The notes below the pieces were generated by a model. It did not search any database, had not been told where the DNA came from, and saw nothing but the letters and a program-made list of their open reading frames with translations. The position numbers were made by a program, and so were the translations under genes. A stretch of DNA of 64,000 bases from a virus (taxonomy: Duplodnaviria > Caudoviricetes): IMG/VR virus record IMGVR_UViG_3300044675_007236; one strand, given 5' to 3'. Of the stretch, positions 5,720 to 48,274 are shown piece by piece. The first letter of the stretch is position 1. Every line of letters begins with the position of its first letter.

Positions 5720-6126
5720 GCTACGACCTGTACTGTAAATGTGTCTATAAGTGCGTTATTTGCATTGTTACGTACTTCTACTGTTTGCGGACTTACCTTA
5801 GCCGTCAAGGTGCTGTAACAAGTAAACTTAACCCACTGACCAGCTGTTACTGCGAACGTGCTGCCAGGGCTGTCGGCTACCTGTATCCATGGCGGCGTTG
5901 TTGGTTGCCCGTTTGGGTTTAAAGTTGCTTCAGAAGCTGCTACTTGATAGAAAAGTTGAATATTGGACGGGCTTGTCAAGTTTACAACTTTAAGTGTTAC
6001 ACCGTATGTAAGTAATTTACTGGTGATAGTGCCGCTTGTTGTGCCTAAACTCCACTGTATAGCTTCCCAGTCTGGGTTAACAACGCTTGGTGGTTGTACG
6101 TTAAACAGACCAGCAAATGGTAACAT
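5716..6126 (-). CDS. beta-rich fibre-associated protein (~136 aa)
   Basis: ATG at 6126 overlaps the fibre stop (TAATG); Thr/Ser/Val-rich beta-strand pattern. Confidence 0.7.
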   Translation of the reverse strand: MLPFAGLFNVQPPSVVNPDWEAIQWSLGTTSGTITSKLLTYGVTLKVVNLTSPSNIQLFYQVAASEATLNPNGQPTTPPWIQVADSPGSTFAVTAGQWVKFTCYSTLTAKVSPQTVEVRNNANNALIDTFTVQVVA

Positions 6127-8270
6127 TATATTGTTGTATCTCCAGCTAGTACAAAGTTGTTTGCACTTCTTTGGATCAGAGACACGACTGCCCATCTACC
6201 TGCTGTTTTAGTGTGACTTTGTCTGTTGTTTATGGTTGTACCCGACGCATTAAAAGTAACTTGACCTGTACCTGACTGTATCACAGTAACCGTAAAACCA
6301 ACTGGTAAGCCTGTAGGTACCGTTATCGTTATAGCGTTACTGCATTCCAAGACTACACCGTTATCACCGGCTCCAAGTGTTCGCGATGCGTTAGCCTCGG
6401 TTACAATTATACCTGTACCTGTAACATACTTATTGGAAGTGATACCACCGGTGCTAAGCATATTAGTGCTAGCGTTGTAACTAAGAGCTGGCGACGTTGT
6501 ATCGATGTTAGGCGTTTGATTACTCCCGCCCGCCGCCACAAATACAACGTAAAACAAAGAATCTGCGTCTGTGGCTGTTGCGTTTATAGCTGTGCTAGGA
6601 CCCGTCGCACCGGTAGAGCCAGTTACTCCTGTGGCTCCTGTAGTCCCGGCAGCTCCGTTAGCACCTGTTGGTCCGGTAGCACCTACCGTCCCACTTATGC
6701 CTGTGGCACCTTGCGAACCTGTAGCCTGTAACGATAAGACAACTTGGTCTGACGCGGTGTAAGTTCCGTTTGTAACAATACTCTCTACACTAAAATCAAA
6801 ATAGGTTGCTTCTTCAGTTACAGCGGTAATTCGATACAAGCCAAAGTTAGTCACGTTGTTTATCAACCACGTCTTTATAATGTCGCTAGCTTTAAACGTG
6901 TCTAACCATGCCGTCATATCTATGTCATTGTAATTTGACTTTTCAACGTAAATATGCTCGACAGCATCCAATACTGCGCTATCAAAATAAACTTGACCGT
7001 GGGAAGTTAACGCCATTATCTTGGCAGATTCTATCTCAGTGTCTGCGTAGAAATAGCTGTCGTCACCTGTGTGTTTTAAAGGAAATACAGGGGCCTCTGG
7101 TGAAAGGTTGCTGTTAAACTCCCAGCTCATCAGAAAATCATTTTCGTCGGGTGTAGGCGGGCCGGACGGGCCGGGTGGTCCTGTTGGCCCTGTTGGGCCT
7201 GTTGGTCCCGAAGGCCCGGTTGAACCTTCGCAACAAGGCCCTTGTGGCCCAACGGCACCTTGCGGACCTGCAGGACCTATAGGTCCTTGTGGGCCTACGT
7301 CACCCTGAGGTCCTTGATAGCCTTGAGGTCCCCGATAGCCTTGAGGTCCCCGATAGCCTTGAGGTCCGCGGTATCCCTGCGGCCCGCGATAACCGTAAGG
7401 TCCACGGTATCCCTGCGGACCGCGGTACCCGGTTGCTCCCCGACCACCTAGCGGTCCTTGAGGCCCTGTTGGGCCTTGGTTACCGTCTGGGCCTGGATTG
7501 CCGTCTGGGCCTGGATTACCGTCTGGGCCTGGGTTGCCATCTGGGCCTGGATTACCGTCTGGACCGCTAGGTCCGGCTGGGCCTTGTGGTCCTTCTGGCC
7601 CGCTTGGTCCCGCGGGTCCGGTGGGTCCGGCTGGGCCTTGTGGTCCGTTTGGTCCTACTGGTCCTTGTGGTCCTTCTGGCCCAACGGGTCCTTCCGGTCC
7701 GTCAGGCCCTTGCGGTCCGGCTGGGCCTTGTGGTCCTTCCGGACCTTCTGGACCTTCGGGTCCTTGCGGCCCCTGTGGGCCTTCTGGTCCTGTTGGACCC
7801 TGTGGACCTTGTGGGCCTAACTGCGGGCTGGGTATTCCAAGATTTAAATCAATAGAGAACGTACAATCGCCAGATTTTGTTACGTCAAGCGAGGCAAACG
7901 GAGCTCCGCCGGGGCCTACGGTACTTACAGTGGCACTTCCGCTAATTTCCGGGCAAGGAAAAGCAATATCCAGCGTAAAGGTGTAATCGCAGCATGCACC
8001 TTTAGTTATTATGAGACTAGCGTTTTCTCCACCAATTGGCACTACGGTGGTATCAACATCGCCCGCACCTATTACAGGACAAATAGGATCGGGATCTAGC
8101 ATCGGAACCGGCAGCGACGGGCAATCGAAAATATCAGTCGGTGCCTGCGGTACCTGTGGATTAAGCAGCCAATTACCGCCAGGTATAGGAAAAATACAAG
8201 GCACATCGCATTTGATAACATCAAATACAGGTGACTGAGGTCCTTGTGGACACGGAGTCGTCGGTGCCAT
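6126..8270 (-). CDS. collagen-like tail fibre (714 aa)
   Basis: Cys/Pro-rich N-terminus, long G-X-Y repeat region, second GAT-type block, and a C-terminal fibre-tip-like beta domain ([27 protein letters not shown]). Confidence 0.85.
7155..7817 (-). repeat. coding 9/18-bp tandem repeats (collagen G-X-Y, ~73 triplets)
   Basis: Blocks of [12 protein letters not shown] and GYRGPQ repeats in frame within the fibre gene. Confidence 0.95.
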
Positions 8271-16242: not shown

Positions 16243-16836
16243 CTAGCTCAAAGTGGTTTCCCATTCGATTCCGATCTGACTAGACGGCAGCTTTTGTTGC
16301 TGGTCAGCCGGTTCATAGTACCAACTGCTGTATATCAAGTCTTGAGTTGCGTCAGTATCGTCTACAATCGCAACTAAACTACCGCCGAAAACAACCGAAT
16401 TGGCCGCAGCTGAGAACGATTTACCGTGAACACCGACCGAGCCGCTACTTCTTGCAAAGTACGACATCTTGTTATTTATAAGACCGTTGCCTTCGGAACT
16501 GAGCTCAGCCGCTGTAACTGGAACACGTAGATAATCTCGGTTAGAGCTTAACGCCAAACTGTTATAGTAGTTTACATCGCGAGTTCGATCAAAAACTGGA
16601 GGGCTCACTGGGTCACCCGGATTGTCGGTGTTTTCGAATTCCAAATACATACCACTAATGCGATAACGGCTATCGCCGCTAGTCAACAGCTTCGCGACAA
16701 TAGTCGCCCATTGGTATACGATCAAGTTGTGCTTAAACTCGGTTACCGGCTTCCAGATTAGCTCAGTTGCGATAAGATCTTCGGCGGTATATGCGCGAAC
16801 ACGTCCTGATACCTTTATTGCCGTGGCTTCTATCAT
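16243..16836 (-). CDS. putative baseplate wedge-associated protein (~197 aa)
   Basis: Start at 16836 (TAATG overlap); HNLIVYQWATIVAKLL...ISGMYLEF pattern typical of small wedge/fibre-connector proteins. Confidence 0.55.
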   Translation of the reverse strand: MIEATAIKVSGRVRAYTAEDLIATELIWKPVTEFKHNLIVYQWATIVAKLLTSGDSRYRISGMYLEFENTDNPGDPVSPPVFDRTRDVNYYNSLALSSNRDYLRVPVTAAELSSEGNGLINNKMSYFARSSGSVGVHGKSFSAAANSVVFGGSLVAIVDDTDATQDLIYSSWYYEPADQQQKLPSSQIGIEWETTLS

Positions 16837-18395
16837 TAAATGCACCTTCCACCTATAGTTTTAACTTTTGAAGTTTCTGTTACGTAAACGTCTGAGTTTA
16901 ACGACTCTGAGACAGTTAAGCACTGGAAACTTTCAAAACTTTCAGAGTAACCTGGAGCTATTTCCGTACCTGCAGTTTCCATGACAATCGGGCTATCAGC
17001 GTAAACCAAGTCTACCAGCAGTAGCATCAGGGTATGCGGCGGCATAATTTTTCTAAGCTGGGTTACCGGAACAAATTCTAGCCGATTTTGCAATTTGCTT
17101 CCAGGTTTAACTTTGACAATGAAAAGGTTAAACTTTAACAGATTGTCGATCAAAAACTTTAGAGGGTTGATCTCCACGGGAAGCGAAGACGCTGTTGGTT
17201 GACCGATCGGGTTTTCACGTACATCCAGTAGCATGGCAAGTGTCTCGTTTTTTGCAATGCCGCTCGTATGCACGTCGTGCCAGAACTTGGTTACATCGTT
17301 CGGAAATCCGCCTATTTCCCAGGTGACCTTCGTATAACCATCCTCGGCTAATTCCACATTTAGCGGAACATTTTTGTTAGAAAACACAAGGCCGTCGTAG
17401 AAGCCTTTGGTCAGCATGTTGGTATCTATTGTCAAAGCATCTACGCCGCAATTGATGTCAAACCCTCTGTTGAATTCAACAACCTCGAAAGTGTCGGTGA
17501 GTGCCTGTCCCGCGTAAACAGTTTGACCGATTGAAACTACTGCGTTTGCTGTAGCTGGAAACGTGTAAACGTGTGCGTCTGTGATAATCTGCAAACCGTT
17601 TGTGTCGTTAGCTACTAACTCCACGATTTCTTCGCCGTTAATTACTAACGGAACACCAAACGCTGCGGCTAAAGCTTGTTGCTGCGATCTTACGCTTGTA
17701 CCTTCGTTAAAACTATCGAGTATCGCATTTACAAACGACTTGTAACCAGGGCTAGAACGCATAGGCAGTGAAAGAACGTAACCGAATTGATCGTAAATGT
17801 AGTCCCAATCCCATTTGCTGCGATAGAGCCACAGCGTTATTTCTCTGTCGACAATTTCGCCAACGTTGTTTAACACTTCTCTCTTAGGGATATCTGGGTT
17901 ATCAAACGGATTGCTACGTAAAACTACAGTGCTGTCTTCCAGCCAGAAATCAATACCGTTAATTAGTTGAACAGCTGAATCTGTAATTCTTTCAAAGATA
18001 ACGCCACACTCTTTTAGTTCTTTTGGCTTGCTTACTGCGTAATAATTAGAGTCTGGTATCTGCCCGTAAAACAATTCAGCCTGACTCTTGTAACTGTACT
18101 GAGTACCCGTTTTGTACACGGCCAGTAGACTTGTGTCCGTATTCAGCTCGGATTGCCTTACTTTAATCGCATACCAGTCGTCTTGATGATAAACAGGCAC
18201 GTTTTTACGTGAAACGCTGTTCACAAGCTCTAAGAATTGAGAATTAGCCTGTTGTGAAAGCTGACCGACTACTGAGCCTATGTCTTTAACCAGTGCGTTA
18301 CCCTGGTACAAAGTAGCCCAGAAGCTACCTAGCAGCCCTAGCAGCGAATCCGGCTTGTCGAAATCATTCTGCGGGTACCGGTAAAGTTTCGTCAT
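16836..18395 (-). CDS. putative baseplate wedge subunit (P2 gpI / T4 gp7-like position)
   Basis: 519 aa; LLGLLGSFW N-terminus and FVNAILDSFNEGTS...ALAAAFGVP segment; synteny. Confidence 0.55.
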   Translation of the reverse strand: MTKLYRYPQNDFDKPDSLLGLLGSFWATLYQGNALVKDIGSVVGQLSQQANSQFLELVNSVSRKNVPVYHQDDWYAIKVRQSELNTDTSLLAVYKTGTQYSYKSQAELFYGQIPDSNYYAVSKPKELKECGVIFERITDSAVQLINGIDFWLEDSTVVLRSNPFDNPDIPKREVLNNVGEIVDREITLWLYRSKWDWDYIYDQFGYVLSLPMRSSPGYKSFVNAILDSFNEGTSVRSQQQALAAAFGVPLVINGEEIVELVANDTNGLQIITDAHVYTFPATANAVVSIGQTVYAGQALTDTFEVVEFNRGFDINCGVDALTIDTNMLTKGFYDGLVFSNKNVPLNVELAEDGYTKVTWEIGGFPNDVTKFWHDVHTSGIAKNETLAMLLDVRENPIGQPTASSLPVEINPLKFLIDNLLKFNLFIVKVKPGSKLQNRLEFVPVTQLRKIMPPHTLMLLLVDLVYADSPIVMETAGTEIAPGYSESFESFQCLTVSESLNSDVYVTETSKVKTIGGRCI

Positions 18396-18717
18396 CGGCC
18401 TTTTCGCTAAATATCTTGTCTAGGAAATAGTCTATAGCAAGCTTCATTGTAGCCGATAGCAGCACTTGCAGTAATAGTGTTAGAAGTACTCCACCTGTTA
18501 CGAACTTATAAGCTTTACGCTGCATTTGTTCGCGGGACGCTCGCGGATTTTCTTGCCACGCGTGTTTTACGGCTTCCATCGCCCTTGTAGCGTCTTTACG
18601 TTTCTTTTCGATTCTCAACAGTGCCCGCTGGTCGTTCTTGCTAACGGCCTGCATATAGGTAATTGCACTTATTCCGTTTTCATCGCAGAACTGTTCGCAC
18701 AACACGCTCCAATCCAT
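18364..18717 (-). CDS. small membrane protein with C-terminal hydrophobic helix (holin/spanin-like candidate)
   Basis: ATG at 18717 with GGAG SD; GGVLLTLLLQVLLSATMKLAI. Confidence 0.55.
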   Translation of the reverse strand: MDWSVLCEQFCDENGISAITYMQAVSKNDQRALLRIEKKRKDATRAMEAVKHAWQENPRASREQMQRKAYKFVTGGVLLTLLLQVLLSATMKLAIDYFLDKIFSEKADDETLPVPAE

Positions 18718-18718
18718 G

Positions 18719-19006
18719 TTAATTCTCCGGTTTAAGCAGCACATCTACGGGCGAGTTATCTATTTCAACTTTGAGCCCGTTTCCAATATTCTTTATTGTC
18801 GAAATCGTAGTCTGAACAGACATCGGCCCTACTTTCAGTTTGATTTTAACGGGAGGTTCAAACTTCATTATTCCTCCGCTGATTGTAATCTTTTGCAGTT
18901 TTGAAAAGTCTACGCTCTTTCCGTCAAAGTTTACGCAGCCTGTTTCCAGCAACTTTGTAACCGCTTCGTGCAGCTTTTCAGGTATCTCAATCGGGTAGTT
19001 GAACAT
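18719..19006 (-). CDS. hypothetical protein
   Basis: 95-aa ORF; TAATG coupling. Confidence 0.75.
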   Translation of the reverse strand: MFNYPIEIPEKLHEAVTKLLETGCVNFDGKSVDFSKLQKITISGGIMKFEPPVKIKLKVGPMSVQTTISTIKNIGNGLKVEIDNSPVDVLLKPEN

Positions 19007-19590
19007 TATTGGGGACAGACCTGACCTGGTGGGCAGGTGCTATAGCTGCGAGCTCGCCGAAATATAGTTGTAGGTTGTCTTGGTACGTAGTACTGAGCTG
19101 GAGCTACAACCGAAGATGACCTAGCTGGAGCACCGTAAGCGGAATAACCGTTATGTAGATTATCGTGCATAGTCTGTAGCTCTTGCATAGTTTTACCGTC
19201 TACATTCAAGCCGTGTACGCTTCTCAGGTGATTTGCCAGTTCGACAAGCGTATAATTCCAGTTGCCCTCAACATTCCAGCTAGATCCCGGCATCCGTGTT
19301 ACGCCTTTTTCCACAGCCGTAACGGCAGCAACTTCCGTTTTAACGCTTTCAAGCGTTGACTTTTTCTCTTTAGCCTTAGCTTGAAGCTCAGTAACAGCCT
19401 GCTCTATGCGGTCAAGTGTGGACCGGTAACCTTGCAACTCTGTCATCGTCTCAGCGTGAGACTTTTGTACCGAGTCTGCGACTGCTAGGTTAAACCTTTC
19501 AAGCATGTCATCGTTAAGTGGTTTTGACTGTGGTACGCAACCTACAAGACAAAGCAACGCTAAAACTAAAAAGCTATTCAGCAATTTCAT
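19006..19590 (-). CDS. lipoprotein with coiled coil and His-rich motif
   Basis: MKLLNSFLVLALLCLVGC lipobox; coiled-coil segment; HLRSVHG...MHDNLH; ends CPPGQVCPQ. Confidence 0.75.
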   Translation of the reverse strand: MKLLNSFLVLALLCLVGCVPQSKPLNDDMLERFNLAVADSVQKSHAETMTELQGYRSTLDRIEQAVTELQAKAKEKKSTLESVKTEVAAVTAVEKGVTRMPGSSWNVEGNWNYTLVELANHLRSVHGLNVDGKTMQELQTMHDNLHNGYSAYGAPARSSSVVAPAQYYVPRQPTTIFRRARSYSTCPPGQVCPQ

Positions 19591-20479
19591 CGTCAAAGTC
19601 CTCAAGCTCGGAGTTATCGTCCAGTTCGGCCCAGTTTTCAGTTACCTCTTTTTCGATTTCCGGTTCTGTTTGTTTTTCTTCCGGCTTCATGGTGATCTTA
19701 AAATATGGGGAGTTTTGATACCAGTCAACAGGAACCGGTTCTTTTGACCCCATAAGACCTATTGCCGTAGTCCAGCTGTGCGACAACATCTGTTGCCAAG
19801 CTGTAGGTGTAATAAGATACGTGCCATCGCCGTGTGAGTTCATTGCACGCAAATCACCGTCACGCGTGTAACCTAGAATGCACATAGCATGCCCGCCTCT
19901 ACCGGGAATGAACCTCCGTATCACGCGATTAGACGGAATGGTCGAATTACCGTAAGCTATACCAAAATTGATAGCACCTCCACCACCGATAAAATTCAAC
20001 GTTTCTTCGTGATCTCTAGTACACTGCCACGCAGACAAGGCTTTATAAGGTGCGCCTGCCTTATAGTTGGCTTCACTCAAAATCTTGTTGCGAGCGTCGC
20101 GGCCTGGATACGAAGTTGGATAACCAGTCATGCTTTCAGGCGGACAACCAGTTTCCAAGGCTAGTTTAGCTCCGCCGGATATCGTTGAACCGTTATCGGA
20201 CCCAAGCAGCCCGTCGATTCTTTGCGTAGCTAGGTAGGCAAATATACGAGATAACTGCACCTTTATGCCGGTAACAAGAGCACAACGCTCAAGCACAGAC
20301 GAAAGTGAATTGCCCTGGCAACTTCCAATTTGCAGTTGATTTTCGTCGCGGTGCCAATCTAGCGTAACCTCTGCAGGACGGCTGAAAACTCGCCAGGCAG
20401 CGTTATGCATTGGAAGAATAGGAAGCGATTTTAGAAAATTTCGGTCTTCTCGTTCGTAGTTGTAACTGTTACCTAGCAT
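19574..20479 (-). CDS. papain-like (C1-family) cysteine peptidase
   Basis: NQLQIGSCQGN (oxyanion Q, catalytic C), GGHAMCILGY (H), MNSHG (N); likely start 20479 (TAATG overlap). Confidence 0.85.
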   Translation of the reverse strand: MLGNSYNYEREDRNFLKSLPILPMHNAAWRVFSRPAEVTLDWHRDENQLQIGSCQGNSLSSVLERCALVTGIKVQLSRIFAYLATQRIDGLLGSDNGSTISGGAKLALETGCPPESMTGYPTSYPGRDARNKILSEANYKAGAPYKALSAWQCTRDHEETLNFIGGGGAINFGIAYGNSTIPSNRVIRRFIPGRGGHAMCILGYTRDGDLRAMNSHGDGTYLITPTAWQQMLSHSWTTAIGLMGSKEPVPVDWYQNSPYFKITMKPEEKQTEPEIEKEVTENWAELDDNSELEDFDDEIAE

Positions 20480-20865
20480 TATTTCGTGTAACTCCTCAGC
20501 AAGGATTCGTGAGCTTCTTTCGACCAACCGCCTTTCGTCTTAAAATACTCAGCCTCAGACTTTGCTAGCTTTTCAAAAGCTAATTTTCTAGCTGGTTCCT
20601 GCCCGGCTGCTTGAAACTCCCACGCCGCCTTTTCTGTGTCGAGCTCACCGGAAGCGAGCTTGTCCGCAGTAGTAATCTGGTGAACACGCCATAGCTGTTC
20701 ATATGTTTTGAAAGCGTCGGCGGCTAAATCTGCTTTTAGTTGCGAGGACCTAGTTGTAAACCAATTTGTCGGAACTAAAAGAAAAACGCCCAGCAAACCG
20801 CAGATCAAAAGAGACCACGGAAAGCCAGGCGTAGCTTTGTTATCTGCTGTCCATGCAGTTGACAT
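20479..20865 (-). CDS. N-terminally membrane-anchored protein
   Basis: PWSLLICGLLGVFLLVP TM helix then a helical soluble domain; GAGG SD. Confidence 0.7.
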   Translation of the reverse strand: MSTAWTADNKATPGFPWSLLICGLLGVFLLVPTNWFTTRSSQLKADLAADAFKTYEQLWRVHQITTADKLASGELDTEKAAWEFQAAGQEPARKLAFEKLAKSEAEYFKTKGGWSKEAHESLLRSYTK

Positions 20866-20876
20866 TAAAAATACCT

Positions 20877-21221
20877 CTATTGTTTGTTGTGATTGGCCAA
20901 CTTGGCTTCCGCAATAGCAACCTCTGCTTCAGTCAGTTCAGACTTCGCATAATTCCACCATACCTCGGGGCCAGCGTTAGGTGCTGTTTTTTCGATTATC
21001 TGAAGATGTTCGGCAAAGCCAACTGGTGGCGGAGCGTCGCTGCTACGCCCGGATTCTTTTCGTTTGTGTTCGTCGGCAGGTAAGTTTGCTGCCATCAATC
21101 TACTTTTCGGCATCAAGTATCGGTAGCCGTTAAAACCAGCAAAACTAAGCAAACTGACAGCTGCAAGTCCTTTCACGGCATTAACGATAGTTTCCATGTC
21201 CAGTGTAAGTTCGGCTAACAT
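20877..21221 (-). CDS. small membrane protein (holin-like candidate)
   Basis: ATG at 21221 with AAGGA SD; GLAAVSLLSFAGFNGYRYL hydrophobic segment. Confidence 0.6.
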   Translation of the reverse strand: MLAELTLDMETIVNAVKGLAAVSLLSFAGFNGYRYLMPKSRLMAANLPADEHKRKESGRSSDAPPPVGFAEHLQIIEKTAPNAGPEVWWNYAKSELTEAEVAIAEAKLANHNKQ

Positions 21222-21231
21222 AGTATTCCTT

Positions 21232-22155
21232 TCAATTGGTAACAATTAACTTTTGACCTGGCTTCAATTTAACTTTTATCGTGTCCTTGGTTTGGCTTAC
21301 GTTAGACACTAACTTTGCCGGGTTTTGGTTTAAACCGTAAAGCTTTTGGATTCTAGGAATGTCGTCAACTGGCTGCGGGGTAGCCACAAACGGGTTGTAG
21401 TAAGGAGCCATCAACGCTTGCTTTTTGTCGGAATGTGCCAACCCCAACAAGTGACCAAACTCATGACACGCTACGTTTGATAACAGTATACCTCGTTCTC
21501 CTTTGTTCGCCACCCACGTTTCGTCTAAATCAAATCGCATCAAAAGCTTTTCGTTTTTGCCTCTAGGCATGTAAGCCCAGGCCAAGGTGCCGCCTTTACC
21601 GTCGAATTGATGCGTGACACCTTTACCTGTAGTGATAACGATATCGGCAAGTTTAGCATCTTTAGCCTCAGTGATGTTTAAACCGCAAGCATCATCCCAA
21701 GCCTTAAAAGCTTCTTGGAAAATACGTTTTTGTTCAGTTTTTGAAACTTTGCCTGTCACGTAATTGGCAATAGTATACGTAAGTCCAGTTTTGTTCCACC
21801 TGTCACGTTTTTCAGCTACAACCTCAGCTGCGCGTAAAAATTCAACGTGTTTCTCGTTAGACTTGTCCAATTTGTCAGGGCACCCGCATCTAGGCGTATG
21901 CATAGCCTTAAGCGTCTCCTCGGTCAGCACGCCGTCAGCTTTTATGCCGAAATAACGTTGAAAAAGCTTAATTCCAGCGTGAATGTCGTCTACGCTTATA
22001 TTTTTCAGCAGTTCAACGGTCAAGTAGCCAAAAAACACAAGATAGTCAGTGGCAAACGTGATTGCTTGCGGTGTTTGCTTGTTTTTCGTTGCAGCTAGGT
22101 TGGATTTTGCAAGAATACGTACAACTTCGGCTTTACCACTTGTTTTCTTTGGCAT
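21232..22155 (-). CDS. matrixin / MMP-like zinc metallopeptidase (M10) with prodomain
   Basis: PGBD-like prodomain FQRYFGIKADGVL, cysteine switch PRCGCPD, FDGKGGTLAWAY, HEFGHLLGLAH zinc motif, ALMAP Met-turn. Confidence 0.92.
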   Translation of the reverse strand: MPKKTSGKAEVVRILAKSNLAATKNKQTPQAITFATDYLVFFGYLTVELLKNISVDDIHAGIKLFQRYFGIKADGVLTEETLKAMHTPRCGCPDKLDKSNEKHVEFLRAAEVVAEKRDRWNKTGLTYTIANYVTGKVSKTEQKRIFQEAFKAWDDACGLNITEAKDAKLADIVITTGKGVTHQFDGKGGTLAWAYMPRGKNEKLLMRFDLDETWVANKGERGILLSNVACHEFGHLLGLAHSDKKQALMAPYYNPFVATPQPVDDIPRIQKLYGLNQNPAKLVSNVSQTKDTIKVKLKPGQKLIVTN

Positions 22156-23823
22156 TTAGGTTGCAACCGGTATGGAAGAAACAATGTTCAGATTCACGTT
22201 TGACGTTTCGGCGAAAAACTGAACTGTCTTAGAAGTTACCATTTTTTCAGGTAGTTCTGGAATTAGCAAGGCGTCATCACTTCTGACGTACTTAATTGTA
22301 CCGTCCGGCATGCGAATTCGACCTAGGATATCAAGTTCAGTTACGTTTAGTCTGCCCTGCAAGAAATTATGAACTGTATCGACAATCGCCGAACCAGGTA
22401 AAACACCTTGGAAATCTATCGCGTTAATTTCATCAATAATCGCTGCACGAATAGGATCTAGCAAGGGGGCTACGTCGTCCGCAGCTTTGTTTATAGTGAG
22501 CGTGACGCTGACAAAACAAGGAACAGGTGCTTTAATCAGAGCGTCAGCTCCGTAATGTCTGATGTCCCGGCTAGAAACTAAATCCTGCAGTTCTTTGATG
22601 TAAGGTACACCGGTTATCTCGTAAATGTAATCGGCAGCCTGGCCTACAGCCAAGTCTGCAACGGGAGTAACCGTGTCTTCGAATCGGACTATAGCGTTTT
22701 GAAAAGCCGTATAAGCCCCTTCTTCAACTGTGGCGATGTCTGGAAGAAAACCAGCTCCGGTTAAATCGATAGACCGAGTATCGGAAACAATGTTAAAACC
22801 TGACACAACAAAAGCAGCATCAGATCTACGAATCTTGTCTATCTCATAAAAACCAGGTAACACTGAAGCGGGTACAGTAAACTGCCACTGGCTTGTACCT
22901 GTAACCGTTGACACGCTAATGCAAGTAGCTGACGCGACAGCCGTTTTCCTTTGTATTGCAGACTGCCCTCTGATATACCAATCAACCCTACCGCCAGTAA
23001 GCGTCGGAAAAATTGTGTGCTTATCTCGCAGCATTTCCGGGTCACCACAACCAACTATAGACTGGTTTGTAATCGAAGCAAATTGCGGCAAGCTCCGAAG
23101 GTAGGCCCGCATGTTTGTTCGGTTAGATAAAGCTTTTGCTGAAATACCCAGCTGCAATTCGTTCAGCAGTTCTTCGTTTGTTTCGGTATTCGTTCCGTCT
23201 TCAAACGAAGAAGTCGCGTAGCTTGTCGCGTAATTGACAATTGACCGATTAGGTACAATCAGGTCGCCTGCGTTGAGTTTGCGGTCAGCACCAATATCCG
23301 CGGCTTCTACTTCAATCGTAAAAGCGTAATTACCGTTGCTAAGCGGTGTTAGCAGTCGGTCGTTTTCGCTTAAAATCTGAGCAGATGCAATACGGCCTAC
23401 AAATGTTGCTGTTGTTAGATATTGAAAACCATTGGCTTCGAAAATACTGTTTTGAGGTATAGTGAGCGGTCTTAGTTCTGAGAGCTCTATGGTAACCGGG
23501 CCAACAGCTTTTGTTCCGGGCTTACGTACAATACCCCAGTTAGAAAGCACCTCGCTGACGACTGTATCATCGGCCAACGTTGGATCTTCCTGAATTTTTT
23601 GAAGGCTTCTGGCGGACTGATAGCGTTCTAAATTGGCACGAATAGCCGCGTCTAATACAGCGTGATAGTAAGCCAATGTATCTTTGAAAACGCCACGACG
23701 TAAATCCAATGCCGGATTAAGCTCTTGTAGCTGCGAGACAAGCCTGTCAAGCGTCTGCTGAACATCTGCGGAGTCAAGTTGAGTGAGATCAGCTATTTCA
23801 AAGTCAGAGTAAGTTAAAGTCAT
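22156..23823 (-). CDS. baseplate wedge protein, Baseplate J / gp6-like
   Basis: RKPGTKAVGPVTI, LTIPQNSIFEANGFQYLTT, EVEAADIGADRKL, GTNTETNEELL, GGRVDWYI motifs of the baseplate J family. Confidence 0.85.
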   Translation of the reverse strand: MTLTYSDFEIADLTQLDSADVQQTLDRLVSQLQELNPALDLRRGVFKDTLAYYHAVLDAAIRANLERYQSARSLQKIQEDPTLADDTVVSEVLSNWGIVRKPGTKAVGPVTIELSELRPLTIPQNSIFEANGFQYLTTATFVGRIASAQILSENDRLLTPLSNGNYAFTIEVEAADIGADRKLNAGDLIVPNRSIVNYATSYATSSFEDGTNTETNEELLNELQLGISAKALSNRTNMRAYLRSLPQFASITNQSIVGCGDPEMLRDKHTIFPTLTGGRVDWYIRGQSAIQRKTAVASATCISVSTVTGTSQWQFTVPASVLPGFYEIDKIRRSDAAFVVSGFNIVSDTRSIDLTGAGFLPDIATVEEGAYTAFQNAIVRFEDTVTPVADLAVGQAADYIYEITGVPYIKELQDLVSSRDIRHYGADALIKAPVPCFVSVTLTINKAADDVAPLLDPIRAAIIDEINAIDFQGVLPGSAIVDTVHNFLQGRLNVTELDILGRIRMPDGTIKYVRSDDALLIPELPEKMVTSKTVQFFAETSNVNLNIVSSIPVAT

Positions 23824-24773: not shown

Positions 24774-25514
24774 CTATTGCGATATAAAAGGTGATAGGGC
24801 TTGTTCTTGATCTAGCAACTTTTGTATTTTCATTTTACGTTGAGTTATTGCCGCCGGAGTCCTATTCAGTGCTTTTGCGATGTCCAAGTTAGACATTTTT
24901 CGACGGTTATTCATACCCAGCGTCATTTCTAGAATTTGCTGGTCCGTAGGCTCCAGGTCTTGATACACAATTTGTAACCATAGATCCTCAGCTCCCGTGT
25001 CACCAGGAAGCCTACCCGCTATACCGCCAGAGTTGGGGTCAAGGCTCTCGGCCTGACCTGTACTGAAACCCGGCTGATACTTCCGAATCTTAGCAATTCT
25101 AGGGATAGATATTCGCATAAAGTCTGACAATTCTGCATCTGTGGGTTCTCGACCTATTTCGTCAGCAAGTTCTTGTGTTGCCGCTCTTAGCTTCTGACTC
25201 TCGAGTATCACCCGTTCAGGTGCGTTGATGACCTGCCCTTGCTGTCTGGATATTCGTCGCAAACCTTGCATATTAGTTACGATATGCGATCGAAGTCTGG
25301 ACCGCTTTGGATCGTACTTATTGGCAGCTTCCAAAGCCAGAAGCCGAGCCCTGCTGCGTAAAAGCGGGCTGTCGTTACCGTAAGCCTGCAAACCCTGGTT
25401 AATCACCGGGTCTATAGTCTTCAGAAAAGCTGCGTTGCCCTCCGGTGTTTTATTTGCTTGCCAGGTTTCATAAGCTGGCCGAAACTCATCTTCTAAATAA
25501 TCGGTTGGCATCAC
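24774..25514 (-). CDS. sigma70-family RNA polymerase sigma factor (regions 2, 3, 4)
   Basis: LLALEAANKYDPKRS (region 2), ELADEIGREPTDAELSD (region 3), LGMNNRRKMSNLDIAKALNRTPAAITQ (region 4 HTH). Confidence 0.8.
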   Translation of the reverse strand: MMPTDYLEDEFRPAYETWQANKTPEGNAAFLKTIDPVINQGLQAYGNDSPLLRSRARLLALEAANKYDPKRSRLRSHIVTNMQGLRRISRQQGQVINAPERVILESQKLRAATQELADEIGREPTDAELSDFMRISIPRIAKIRKYQPGFSTGQAESLDPNSGGIAGRLPGDTGAEDLWLQIVYQDLEPTDQQILEMTLGMNNRRKMSNLDIAKALNRTPAAITQRKMKIQKLLDQEQALSPFISQ

Positions 25515-47047: not shown

Positions 47048-48274
47048 TTATATTATAGTCTCAGTCACGCTTGTCAGCTGATTGGCACTATAAATAAAAG
47101 TTTTTCGGTAGACGCGACTAGGGCTGCCGTGCGTGTAATCTAATTGCGTAAGTAGCCCGGCACTATATGTAAATATTTTTGACGAACCGTCGGAGTAAGT
47201 TATAGTTGAAACGTTACCGTTGACGTCATAAGTAATCGCAGGTGCCGAGCCGATTATCTGATTATAACGAACCTGCCGCAACTCGGGTAGCGACAAAGTT
47301 TGAGACGCTGCAAACGATAAAAGACCTGAAACATTACCAGTAGCGCCCGTGGCACCTGCAACCCCAGTTGCACCTTGGCTTCCTGTAGCACCAGTTGCAC
47401 CCTGAACACCTTGGCTTCCTGTGGCACCTGTAGCACCCTGAACACCCTGGCTTCCTGTGGCACCTGTAGCACCCTGAACACCCTGGCTTCCCGTTGCACC
47501 TTGGCTTCCTGTGGCACCTGTAGCACCCTGAACACCCTGGCTTCCCGTTGCACCTTGGCTTCCTGTAGCACCAGTTGCACCCTGAACACCTTGGCTTCCT
47601 GTAGCACCAGTTGCACCCTGAACACCCTGGCTTCCCGTTGCGCCTTGGCTTCCTGTAGCACCAGTTGCACCCTGAACACCTTGACTACCTGTAGCCCCGG
47701 TTAGACCTTGGCTTCCTGTAGCACCTTGACTACCTGTAGCCCCGGTTAGACCTTGACTACCTGTAGCCCCGGTTAGACCTTGGCTTCCTGTAGCACCTTG
47801 ACTACCTGTAGCCCCGGTTAGACCTTGACTACCTGTAGCCCCGGTTAGACCTTGGCTTCCTGTGACACCAGTTGCACCCTGAACACCTTGGCTTCCCGTT
47901 GCACCTGTAGCACCCTGAACACCTTGGCTTCCCGTTGCACCTGTAGCCCCTGCTACACCCTGCGTACCCTGACTACCAGTTGCACCTTGGCTTCCTGTAG
48001 CCCCTGTAATACCGGTAGATCCTGTTATACCCTGACTACCAGTTGCACCAGTTGCACCCTGAACACCTTGGCTTCCTGTGGCACCTTGACTACCTGTAGC
48101 CCCGGTAGCACCGGTCAAACCCGTAGCTCCAGTCGCTCCGGCAGCATCTCCAATATAATCACGAACATCTTCGCCGTTAGTAAACGTAAGCAGCTGCCTA
48201 CCAAATGCATCAGTGGTTAACTCGTCAATTTTAGTTAACTGATCTGAATAAGGCTGTGGTAGATAGTTCGTCAT
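47048..48274 (-). CDS. collagen-like fibre (408 aa), Thr/Ser-rich
   Basis: ~89 G-X-Y triplets of [12 protein letters not shown]; C-terminal YD-like repeats ([17 protein letters not shown]...FTYSAGLLT). Confidence 0.85.
47336..48139 (-). repeat. coding tandem repeats (GATGSQ / GVQ collagen units)
   Basis: Near-identical 9-bp-multiple units in frame. Confidence 0.95.

What the first reader, a model, noticed from the sequence alone, without database searches (positions are those of the whole stretch)
18364..22155. Membrane/lipoprotein/protease cassette inserted among baseplate genes, with no classical endolysin: possible protease-based lysis or entry system
Seen: seven genes encode three small TM proteins, a coiled-coil lipoprotein, an intact papain-like Cys peptidase, an MMP and one small unassigned protein, splitting the wedge genes. 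No lysozyme, amidase or transglycosylase motif was recognised anywhere in the window. Established: lysis cassettes normally combine a holin, a peptidoglycan hydrolase and spanins (TM protein plus lipoprotein). Inference: here proteases may replace or complement the endolysin against a protein-rich envelope such as that of Planctomycetota, with the TM/lipoprotein pair acting as spanins.
Basis: inference. Interest (0 to 1): 0.72.

Follow-up and report, generated by a model that had tools for sequence, protein, structure and literature searches.

The report
Protease-based envelope cassette in giant phage
A lake giant phage carries seven tightly packed genes inserted between two baseplate genes: a latent animal-type metalloprotease, a papain-type protease, four membrane or lipid-anchored proteins and one small soluble protein. 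They most likely attack the host envelope at lysis, but that role is inferred and not shown.

Summary
Window 18364-22155 (minus strand) has seven real genes, all conserved at 61-82% amino-acid identity in a complete 204.8-kb relative. They encode a matrixin zymogen, a papain-family (C1A) protease, three single-TM proteins, a lipoprotein and a small soluble protein.

Comparison of 38 related phages shows the block is an insertion. In 12 relatives the flanking genes (Baseplate_J and a 519-aa protein) abut directly. In others the junction holds different membrane or secreted cargo.

The block has two parts:
- MMP plus g2.
- g3-g4-g5-g6-g7. Homologues of g3, g4 and g7 sit with an exported thioredoxin as solitary islands in bacterial chromosomes, two of them Planctomycetota. 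One island lies two genes downstream of a PHROG holin.

No peptidoglycan hydrolase family was found in the complete relative, nor in 17 further huge phage genomes. Eleven of those also lack the MMP (five complete genomes among them). So "no endolysin" is a trait of the wider group and does not single out this cassette.

Best reading, at about 0.45: a lysis-linked, envelope-directed protease module. Rivals are receptor destruction or superinfection exclusion, virion entry enzymes, and a captured host envelope module.

This scan had already noted papain-thioredoxin modules on other phage DNA. The MMP partner is new here.

The parts
22156..23823 (-). Baseplate_J (gp6/gpJ-like wedge protein), upstream flank. 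Its stop codon abuts the MMP start.
   Evidence: Pfam Baseplate_J 2.3e-10 and phrog_6 baseplate wedge 2.2e-14.
21232..22155 (-). g1: matrixin (M10A) zymogen of 307 aa. It has a PG_binding_1-type prodomain, a PRCGCPD cysteine switch, an HEFGHLLGLAH zinc site and an ALMAP Met-turn. It has no signal peptide.
   Evidence: The family has at least 307 clusters at 90% identity.
20877..21245 (-). g2: small membrane protein with one TM near residues 20-38 and a charged C-terminal part. The probable start is the ATG at about 21221. It always follows the MMP in the subclade.
20479..20865 (-). g3: protein with an N-terminal signal-anchor and a conserved helical domain of about 80 aa. It is translationally coupled to g4. 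Homologues sit upstream of C1 proteases in bacterial islands.
19574..20527 (-). g4: papain-family (C1A, xylellain-like) cysteine protease with Q64/C70/H213/N230. It has no signal peptide and no I29 prodomain. The probable start is the ATG at about 20479. Only close relatives share the acidic C-terminal tail.
19006..19605 (-). g5: lipoprotein (LVGC lipobox) with a helical or coiled segment, a four-His motif domain and a C-terminal CPPGQVC. The proteins in this slot carry a thioredoxin-type CxxC domain in one bacterial island (L016, above the Pfam cut-off) and in relatives L017 and L026 (below the cut-off).
18719..19006 (-). g6: soluble 95-aa protein of unknown fold. It is fused to g7 in relative L017, so the two probably act as one unit.
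18364..18744 (-). g7: tail-anchored membrane protein with a basic N-terminal domain, a TM near residues 81-103 and an acidic tail. The probable start is at about 18717. Homologues end the chromosomal C1 islands.
16836..18395 (-). p519: downstream flank, a conserved 519-aa protein. It directly follows Baseplate_J in cassette-free relatives, so it is probably a baseplate or wedge partner. It overlaps g7 by 32 nt.

Best explanation
The block is a late-expressed, envelope-directed protease module. It was inserted at a cargo hot spot between two baseplate genes and most likely acts at host lysis or egress.

Proposed mechanism, all of it inferred:
1. Two signal-less proteases accumulate in the cytoplasm. 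The MMP is kept latent because the thiol of its cysteine switch (PRCGCPD) sits on the zinc.
2. One or more of the small membrane proteins (g2, g3, g6/g7) let the proteases reach the periplasm late in infection.
3. There the proteases cut protein links of the envelope, or peptide parts of the wall.
4. The lipoprotein g5 supports the thiol protease and possibly MMP activation. In relatives the protein in this slot carries a thioredoxin domain.

The module is accessory. It is not shown to be the sole lytic agent.
For: Shown:
- Seven coupled genes with abutting or overlapping stops and starts (coordinates). Promoter- and terminator-like sites in the region are not above the number expected by chance.
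- All seven genes are orthologously conserved in eight related phages.
- The composition is that of a lysis cassette: signal-less hydrolases, small membrane proteins and a lipoprotein.
- The g3, C1 and g7 genes recur with an exported thioredoxin as solitary islands in three bacterial chromosomes, two of them Planctomycetota.
- In L016 the island starts with a 71-aa two-TM protein that hits PHROG holin 9987 at 5.5e-7. Its lipoprotein has Thioredoxin PF00085 above the cut-off.
- In L026 the C1 gene is replaced by a different papain-fold enzyme, so the protease slot is kept.
- Two distant phages carry extra M10 paralogues with signal peptides, so M10 enzymes do act outside the cytoplasm in phage infections.
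- The cysteine switch is conserved across at least 120 MMP homologues.
- Small TM proteins are enriched within two genes of the MMP in 12 distant contexts: 11/33 against 20/122, p = 0.03.
- No PG-hydrolase Pfam family was found in the complete relative, and its only PG_binding_1 domain is the MMP.
- Perfect-match fragments of every cassette gene occur in four lake RNA libraries. This is weak, because DNA carry-over is not excluded.

Lead only: BFVD lists uncultured-phage C1-fold proteins that are named as carrying PG-binding or muramidase parts.
Against: - Neither M10 nor C1A is known to cleave peptidoglycan (my own knowledge).
- No window gene hits a known holin or spanin family.
- Eleven related huge phages without the MMP, five of them complete genomes, also lack SLT, Phage_lysozyme, Amidase_2 and PG_binding_1. 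The wider group must therefore lyse by something unrecognised that this phage may share.
- The chromosomal C1 island in G216 has no detected homologue of G001 phage proteins within 10 kb, so it could be a cellular system.
- The holin link rests on one hit. Other islands gave none.
- The block sits inside a baseplate operon.
Confidence: 0.45

Rival explanations
1. The block is an accessory surface-modifying module. Its membrane proteins and lipoprotein alter the infected cell's envelope (superinfection exclusion). Its proteases, released at lysis and then activated outside the cell, destroy protein receptors on debris and neighbouring cells, so that progeny are not trapped.
For: - The Baseplate_J/p519 junction is a variable cargo site beside the likely host-recognition genes. 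In relatives it is empty or filled with unrelated secreted, membrane and lipoprotein genes.
- The block is dispensable in the wider group.
- A latent zymogen that is activated only after release fits extracellular action.
- From my own knowledge, known exclusion lipoproteins lie next to tail genes: T5 Llp and lambda Lom.
Against: - The link to a PHROG holin in L016 and the lysis-like composition fit egress better.
- Known exclusion genes are usually expressed early or from a prophage. These genes are coupled to late structural genes (coordinates).
- No homology to any known exclusion protein was found.
Confidence: 0.22
2. The MMP, and perhaps the C1 protease, are virion-associated enzymes. They are carried on the baseplate to digest a proteinaceous surface layer during entry.
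For: - The MMP gene abuts Baseplate_J in every member of the clade that has it there.
- Neither protease has a signal peptide.
- No tail lysozyme or transglycosylase domain was detected in the genome.
Against: - In more distant phages the MMP lies away from baseplate genes, once next to a terminase-like gene.
- It is a free-standing protein of about 300 aa with no adaptor domain.
- Its partners are membrane proteins and a lipoprotein, which are not virion parts.
- A sigma-factor gene also sits in this operon, so position does not imply a structural role.
Confidence: 0.13
3. The g3-g7 part is a captured host (Planctomycetota-type) envelope-protein processing system, and the MMP is a maturation protease for phage proteins such as the collagen-like fibres. 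The block would then serve assembly or host physiology and not envelope breaching.
For: - Solitary chromosomal islands carry the same genes with no detected homologues of G001 phage proteins nearby.
- The phage encodes two long collagen-like proteins.
- The closest solved relatives of the MMP are collagenases.
Against: - The Collagen family scores above its cut-off in only 2 of 5 distant MMP-bearing phages.
- The C1 module was found in only 3 of 301 Planctomycetota genomes searched, which is too rare for a housekeeping system.
- The holin neighbour in L016 argues otherwise.
Confidence: 0.1

Closest known systems
Lambda-type holin-endolysin-spanin lysis cassette (S, R, Rz/Rz1)
   Same: It has signal-less hydrolases clustered with small membrane proteins and a lipoprotein in a tight late operon. 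A homologous C1 module lies two genes downstream of a PHROG holin in L016.
   Different: The enzymes are general-type proteases (M10A and C1A), not muralytic enzymes. No window gene matches a holin or spanin family. The lipoprotein is large and is not nested with an i-spanin gene. The block lies inside a baseplate operon.
Vertebrate pro-MMPs (for example proMMP-1, PDB 1SU3) and bacterial karilysin
   Same: It has the PG_binding_1-type prodomain, a PRCGxPD cysteine switch, HExxHxxGxxH and the Met-turn. The sequence match is 6.9e-30 over prodomain plus catalytic domain.
   Different: It has no signal peptide and no hemopexin domain. The switch reads CGC, with a second cysteine in most phage copies. 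One structural-zinc histidine (LAHA) is Trp (LAWA). The gene is phage-encoded and lies in a late operon.
Xylellain (Xylella fastidiosa C1A protease, PDB 3OIS); also Cwp84, the S-layer-processing protease of C. difficile
   Same: It has the papain fold and the Q/C/H/N catalytic set. Like xylellain it has a short N-terminal extension instead of an I29 prodomain. Xylellain is the best structural hit at 1.4e-12.
   Different: Identity is only about 21%. The phage enzyme has a dedicated upstream membrane partner (g3). In relatives it also has an exported thioredoxin partner.
Mycobacteriophage LysB-type accessory lysis enzymes (PMC6116114)
   Same: The concept matches: an extra lysis enzyme aimed at a non-murein envelope layer, present only in phages of hosts that have that layer.
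   Different: LysB is an esterase and acts alongside a normal endolysin (LysA). Here no endolysin is recognised and the enzymes are proteases.
Tail-region morons and exclusion lipoproteins (T5 Llp, lambda Lom/Bor; my own knowledge)
   Same: These are membrane or lipoprotein cargo inserted next to tail or host-recognition genes, and they vary between relatives.
   Different: Those systems contain no proteases and are not coupled to late structural translation.

Membership tests
Matrixin / MMP zymogen (MEROPS M10A) | HExxHxxGxxH zinc site and Met-turn | tested here: met
   H231, E232, H235, G238 and H241 are invariant and M249 is nearly invariant in 29 diverse homologues. Pfam M10 matches at 2.4e-36.
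Matrixin / MMP zymogen (MEROPS M10A) | Prodomain with PRCGxPD cysteine switch | tested here: met
   PRCGCPD is at least 90% conserved in 121 sequences. It aligns with PRCGVPD of proMMP-1. PG_binding_1 matches at 4.9e-7.
Matrixin / MMP zymogen (MEROPS M10A) | Secretion signal, as in cellular MMPs | tested here: not met
   There is no N-terminal hydrophobic segment. The same holds in most phage homologues.
Matrixin / MMP zymogen (MEROPS M10A) | Full structural-zinc ligand set | tested here: not met
   LAHA of MMP-1 aligns with LAWA, with an invariant Trp. The other ligands were not examined.
Papain family C1A | Gln-Cys-His-Asn catalytic set in the papain fold | tested here: met
   Q64, C70, H213 and N230 are invariant. 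Foldseek gives xylellain at 1.4e-12, and papain and cathepsins at probability 1.0.
Papain family C1A | I29-type inhibitory prodomain and signal peptide | tested here: not met
   There is no Pfam I29 hit and no signal peptide. Only a short, conserved N-terminal extension is present.
Holin-endolysin-spanin lysis cassette | A holin | tested here: inconclusive
   No PHROG or Pfam holin hit was found for g2, g3 or g7. The homologous island in L016 starts with PHROG holin 9987 at 5.5e-7.
Holin-endolysin-spanin lysis cassette | A peptidoglycan-degrading endolysin | tested here: not met
   No muralytic family was found in the window or in the complete relative. Whether the proteases cut murein peptides cannot be tested with these tools.
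Holin-endolysin-spanin lysis cassette | i-spanin/o-spanin pair: adjacent or nested genes, a type II membrane protein plus a small lipoprotein | tested here: inconclusive
   g3 has a signal-anchor and a helical domain. g5 has a lipobox. However, g4 separates the two genes, the mature g5 is about 176 aa, and short g5 orthologues have an uncleaved anchor instead of a lipobox.
Virion-associated (tail) lysin | Part of, or fused to, a structural tail protein; present in virions | not testable with these tools
   The proteins are free-standing. No cultured relative carries them, so no proteome exists.

The most novel reading that the evidence does not exclude
A large, uncultured group of huge phages, partly of Planctomycetota, opens its hosts without any muralytic enzyme. 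It would use redox-gated proteases instead. One is a cytoplasm-latent MMP whose CGC cysteine switch is released in the oxidising periplasm. The other is a papain-type protease kept active there by a dedicated thioredoxin-type lipoprotein. Both would be delivered by novel membrane proteins.
Probability: 0.18. Interest if true: 0.85.

Novelty: new variant of a known kind. Interest (0 to 1): 0.62.

Why it matters
- If the proteases are lytic agents, this would be a protease-based route of phage egress, with no muralytic enzyme recognised in the genome.
- It would give a biological role to an animal-type MMP zymogen that occurs in at least 307 phage protein clusters.
- It offers new enzymes against protein-rich bacterial envelopes.
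- It exposes a gap: 18 huge phage genomes show no recognisable peptidoglycan hydrolase, so their lysis machinery is unknown.
- The C1, thioredoxin and membrane-partner module is shared with bacterial chromosomes and can be tested in the laboratory.

Tried and rejected
- Complex prediction of g4 with the g3 soluble domain gave no verdict.
- Atlas look-ups for g2 and g3 returned only low-score, unnamed clusters.
- blastn and tblastn of the region, the MMP, the C1 protease and Baseplate_J against 50,697 GenBank phages found no match. The Arash paper holds nothing on lysis.
- The collagen co-occurrence test was inconclusive.
- In the RNA contigs, most pieces lie in the cassette and few in the flanks. 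Contigs cannot rank genes and uncovered parts prove nothing, so this was not used.
- hhalign of the two papain-like families was weak: 18%, covering only the His/Asn region. A profile search of the C1b family against PDB sequences found nothing. The fold search settled the question instead.
- PHROG and Pfam scans of the small proteins in L052, L053, L062, L066 and L067 found nothing.
- The 550-575-aa neighbours of distant MMPs are not Baseplate_J.
- The 'holin-like' gene noted 21 kb beyond the window corresponds in G001 to a 170-aa protein with a C-terminal TM and only coiled-coil hits. It lies next to a 2H phosphoesterase. I found no lysis enzyme beside it.
- A two-TM 115-aa protein at G001 188464 has no hydrolase neighbour by Pfam.
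- Host inference is weak. MMP-bearing contigs are binned in Gemmataceae and Pirellulales MAGs but also in Nanopelagicales MAGs. The C1 module was found in only 3 of 301 Planctomycetota genomes.


Full report
**What is there.** Window 18364-22155 holds seven minus-strand ORFs between a Baseplate_J gene (22156-23823) and a 519-aa gene (16836-18395). Stops and starts abut or overlap throughout (coordinates). Promoter- and terminator-like sites in the region are not above the number expected by chance. The block therefore reads as one late operon with the baseplate genes. All seven genes have orthologues of 61-82% amino-acid identity in a complete relative with direct terminal repeats, G001 (IMGVR_UViG_3300008448_000001, 204,794 bp). 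G001 is colinear with the window at about 70-75% nucleotide identity.

**The two enzymes.**
- g1 is a matrixin. Pfam gives M10 at 2.4e-36 and PG_binding_1 at 4.9e-7. It aligns with human proMMP-1 from the prodomain through the cysteine switch into the catalytic domain at 6.9e-30.
- The family has at least 307 clusters of about 300-aa proteins on contigs of up to 236 kb. PRCGCPD, the zinc site and the Met-turn are conserved in them. The switch cysteine persists even at 31-45% identity. g1 has no signal peptide.
- g4 has no Pfam hit. It matches xylellain (3OIS) by sequence at 5e-7 and by fold, along with papain, cathepsins and Cwp84. Q64, C70, H213 and N230 are invariant.

**The five other proteins.**
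- g2, g3 and g7 each have one TM. g5 has an LVGC lipobox. g6 is soluble.
- g6 and g7 are fused in L017.
- g3 orthologues show a standard signal-anchor followed by a conserved helical domain.

**It is an insertion at a hot spot.** I collected 38 loci with Baseplate_J homologues.
- In 12 loci the 519-aa gene follows Baseplate_J directly.
- Five loci have a gap of only about 190-500 bp, holding one short ORF (a conserved protein of about 160 aa in four of them).
- Others hold unrelated cargo rich in signal peptides, TM segments and lipoboxes.
- The MMP sits in the gap in 12 loci, and a C1 or C1b protease in 10.
- In the subclade with MMP identity of at least 55%, all seven genes are orthologous.
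- In L020 only the MMP and a small secreted protein are present.
- In L026 g4 is replaced by a 374-aa protein of another family. That protein also has a papain fold, with Q..C, WAHAM and NSWG motifs, a model pLDDT of 93, and xylellain, Cwp84 and papain as top fold hits. The protease slot is therefore under selection.
- In more distant phages the MMP lies elsewhere, once beside a terminase-like gene. Even there it tends to sit near small TM proteins: 11/33 against 20/122, p = 0.03, with crude ORF calls.

**Two sub-modules.** MMP plus g2 travel together. The g3, g4 and g7 genes form a second unit together with the gene in the g5 slot, and this unit also occurs in bacterial chromosomes.
- L016 is a bacterial piece with tRNA-Ile and tRNA-Ala genes that look like an rRNA-operon spacer, and GC of about 0.6. 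It carries, in order: a 71-aa two-TM protein that hits PHROG holin 9987 at 5.5e-7; an 83-aa protein; a g3-like protein; a C1 protease (phmmer 7e-93 to g4); and a lipoprotein with a WCPAC thioredoxin domain (PF00085, 29.9 bits).
- Two Planctomycetota genomes (G216, G232) carry g3-like, C1, exported CxxC and g7-like genes.
- In G216 this is a solitary island of about 2.6 kb, with no detected homologue of G001 phage proteins within 10 kb.
- Thioredoxin-type domains also appear in the g5 slot of L017 and L026. The window's own g5 lacks one.
- An exported thiol-redox partner beside a cysteine protease suggests that the protease works outside the cytoplasm. This is an inference.

**The endolysin question.**
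- Pfam scans of the window's ORFs of 90 aa or more (standing in for the colinear part of G001) and of the other G001 ORFs of 50 aa or more show no peptidoglycan hydrolase family. One listing was truncated at 25 of 28 families, and one G001 gene was not scanned.
- Six-frame searches of G001 for Phage_lysozyme, SLT, Amidase_2, M15_4, GH25, M23, NlpC/P60, GH19 and CHAP were all negative. The GH19 control rang in no control genome, so that negative carries no weight.
- The only PG_binding_1 domain in G001 is the MMP.
- Five distant MMP-bearing huge phages (131-408 kb) were negative as well.
- Twelve related genomes with no MMP in the Baseplate_J/p519 gap (six of them at least 90% complete) also lack SLT, Phage_lysozyme, Amidase_2 and PG_binding_1. 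Only one of them has an M10 gene elsewhere, so eleven lack the MMP altogether, five of them complete genomes.
- The lack of known endolysins is therefore a property of the wider group. It cannot be used as specific evidence that this cassette is the lytic system.

**Interpretation.**
- Evidence that favours a lysis-linked, envelope-directed role: the composition, the late coupling, the holin neighbour of the homologous island, the thioredoxin partners, the secreted M10 paralogues and the non-orthologous replacement of the protease.
- Evidence that keeps rivals alive: the accessory distribution, the hot-spot location beside likely host-recognition genes, and the solitary chromosomal islands.
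- The rivals are receptor destruction or superinfection exclusion, virion-borne entry enzymes, and a captured host module.
- Redox gating of the CGC switch and activation of the MMP by g4 are hypotheses only.

**Host.** MMP-bearing contigs are binned with Gemmataceae and Pirellulales MAGs, but also with Nanopelagicales MAGs. The C1 module occurs in 3 of 301 Planctomycetota genomes searched. This is suggestive but weak. Planctomycetes do have peptidoglycan (PMC4432640).

**Novelty.**
- No cultured phage has either protease.
- Full-text searches listed no paper describing a phage matrixin or a C1A protease in a lysis cassette.
- This scan had already noted papain-thioredoxin cassettes on other phage DNA. 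Those are unchecked AI notes, and I derived the module independently here.
- New in this report: the MMP zymogen partner, the insertion hot spot, and the group-wide lack of known muralytic enzymes.

Noticed in passing
window 24774-25514 (-): A sigma-70-like gene (Sigma70_r3) sits inside the baseplate operon, between the hub-like 570-aa gene and the gp25-like gene. It holds this position in all relatives examined.
   Followed up: partly
window 6126-8270 (-) and 47048-48274 (-): Two proteins carry 87 and 90 collagen-type G-X-Y triplets (Pfam Collagen 3.7e-44). A phage that encodes both collagen-like proteins and a collagenase-type MMP is curious. The co-occurrence test was inconclusive.
   Followed up: partly
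L062-L082, gap after Baseplate_J (for example L067:5044-9105, L075:8641-13443, L082:8644-13274): The Baseplate_J/p519 junction is a cargo hot spot. Relatives carry unrelated sets of secreted, TM and lipoprotein genes there, including secreted proteins of about 650 aa and a repeated 'AKAYLIKQA'-type family in L070 and L072.
   Followed up: partly
G001-G006 and G310-G321 (18 huge phage genomes, 116-408 kb): None shows SLT, Phage_lysozyme or Amidase_2 in six-frame searches. How this whole group lyses its hosts is unknown.
   Followed up: partly
L039:6264-7610 and L040:8991-9629: These are second M10 paralogues with N-terminal signal peptides and no cysteine-switch prodomain. They lie next to the zymogen-type MMP in two distant phages.
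   Followed up: no
L026:9795-10919 (family A8): This is a papain-fold family unknown to Pfam, with 670 representative clusters. Some members are tandem forms of about 700-750 aa.
   Followed up: partly
window 19100-19300 (g5 residues about 105-155) and L016, L017, L025 orthologues: The lipoproteins share a conserved four-histidine motif (HL..H....LH..H). It may bind a metal. No family was found for it.
   Followed up: no
G001 ORFs of batch A3 (49-105 kb; exact ORFs not located): Pfam hits to Peptidase_Mx (1e-6) and Peptidase_U32_C (4.6e-9) show further peptidase-like genes elsewhere in the relative's genome.
   Followed up: no
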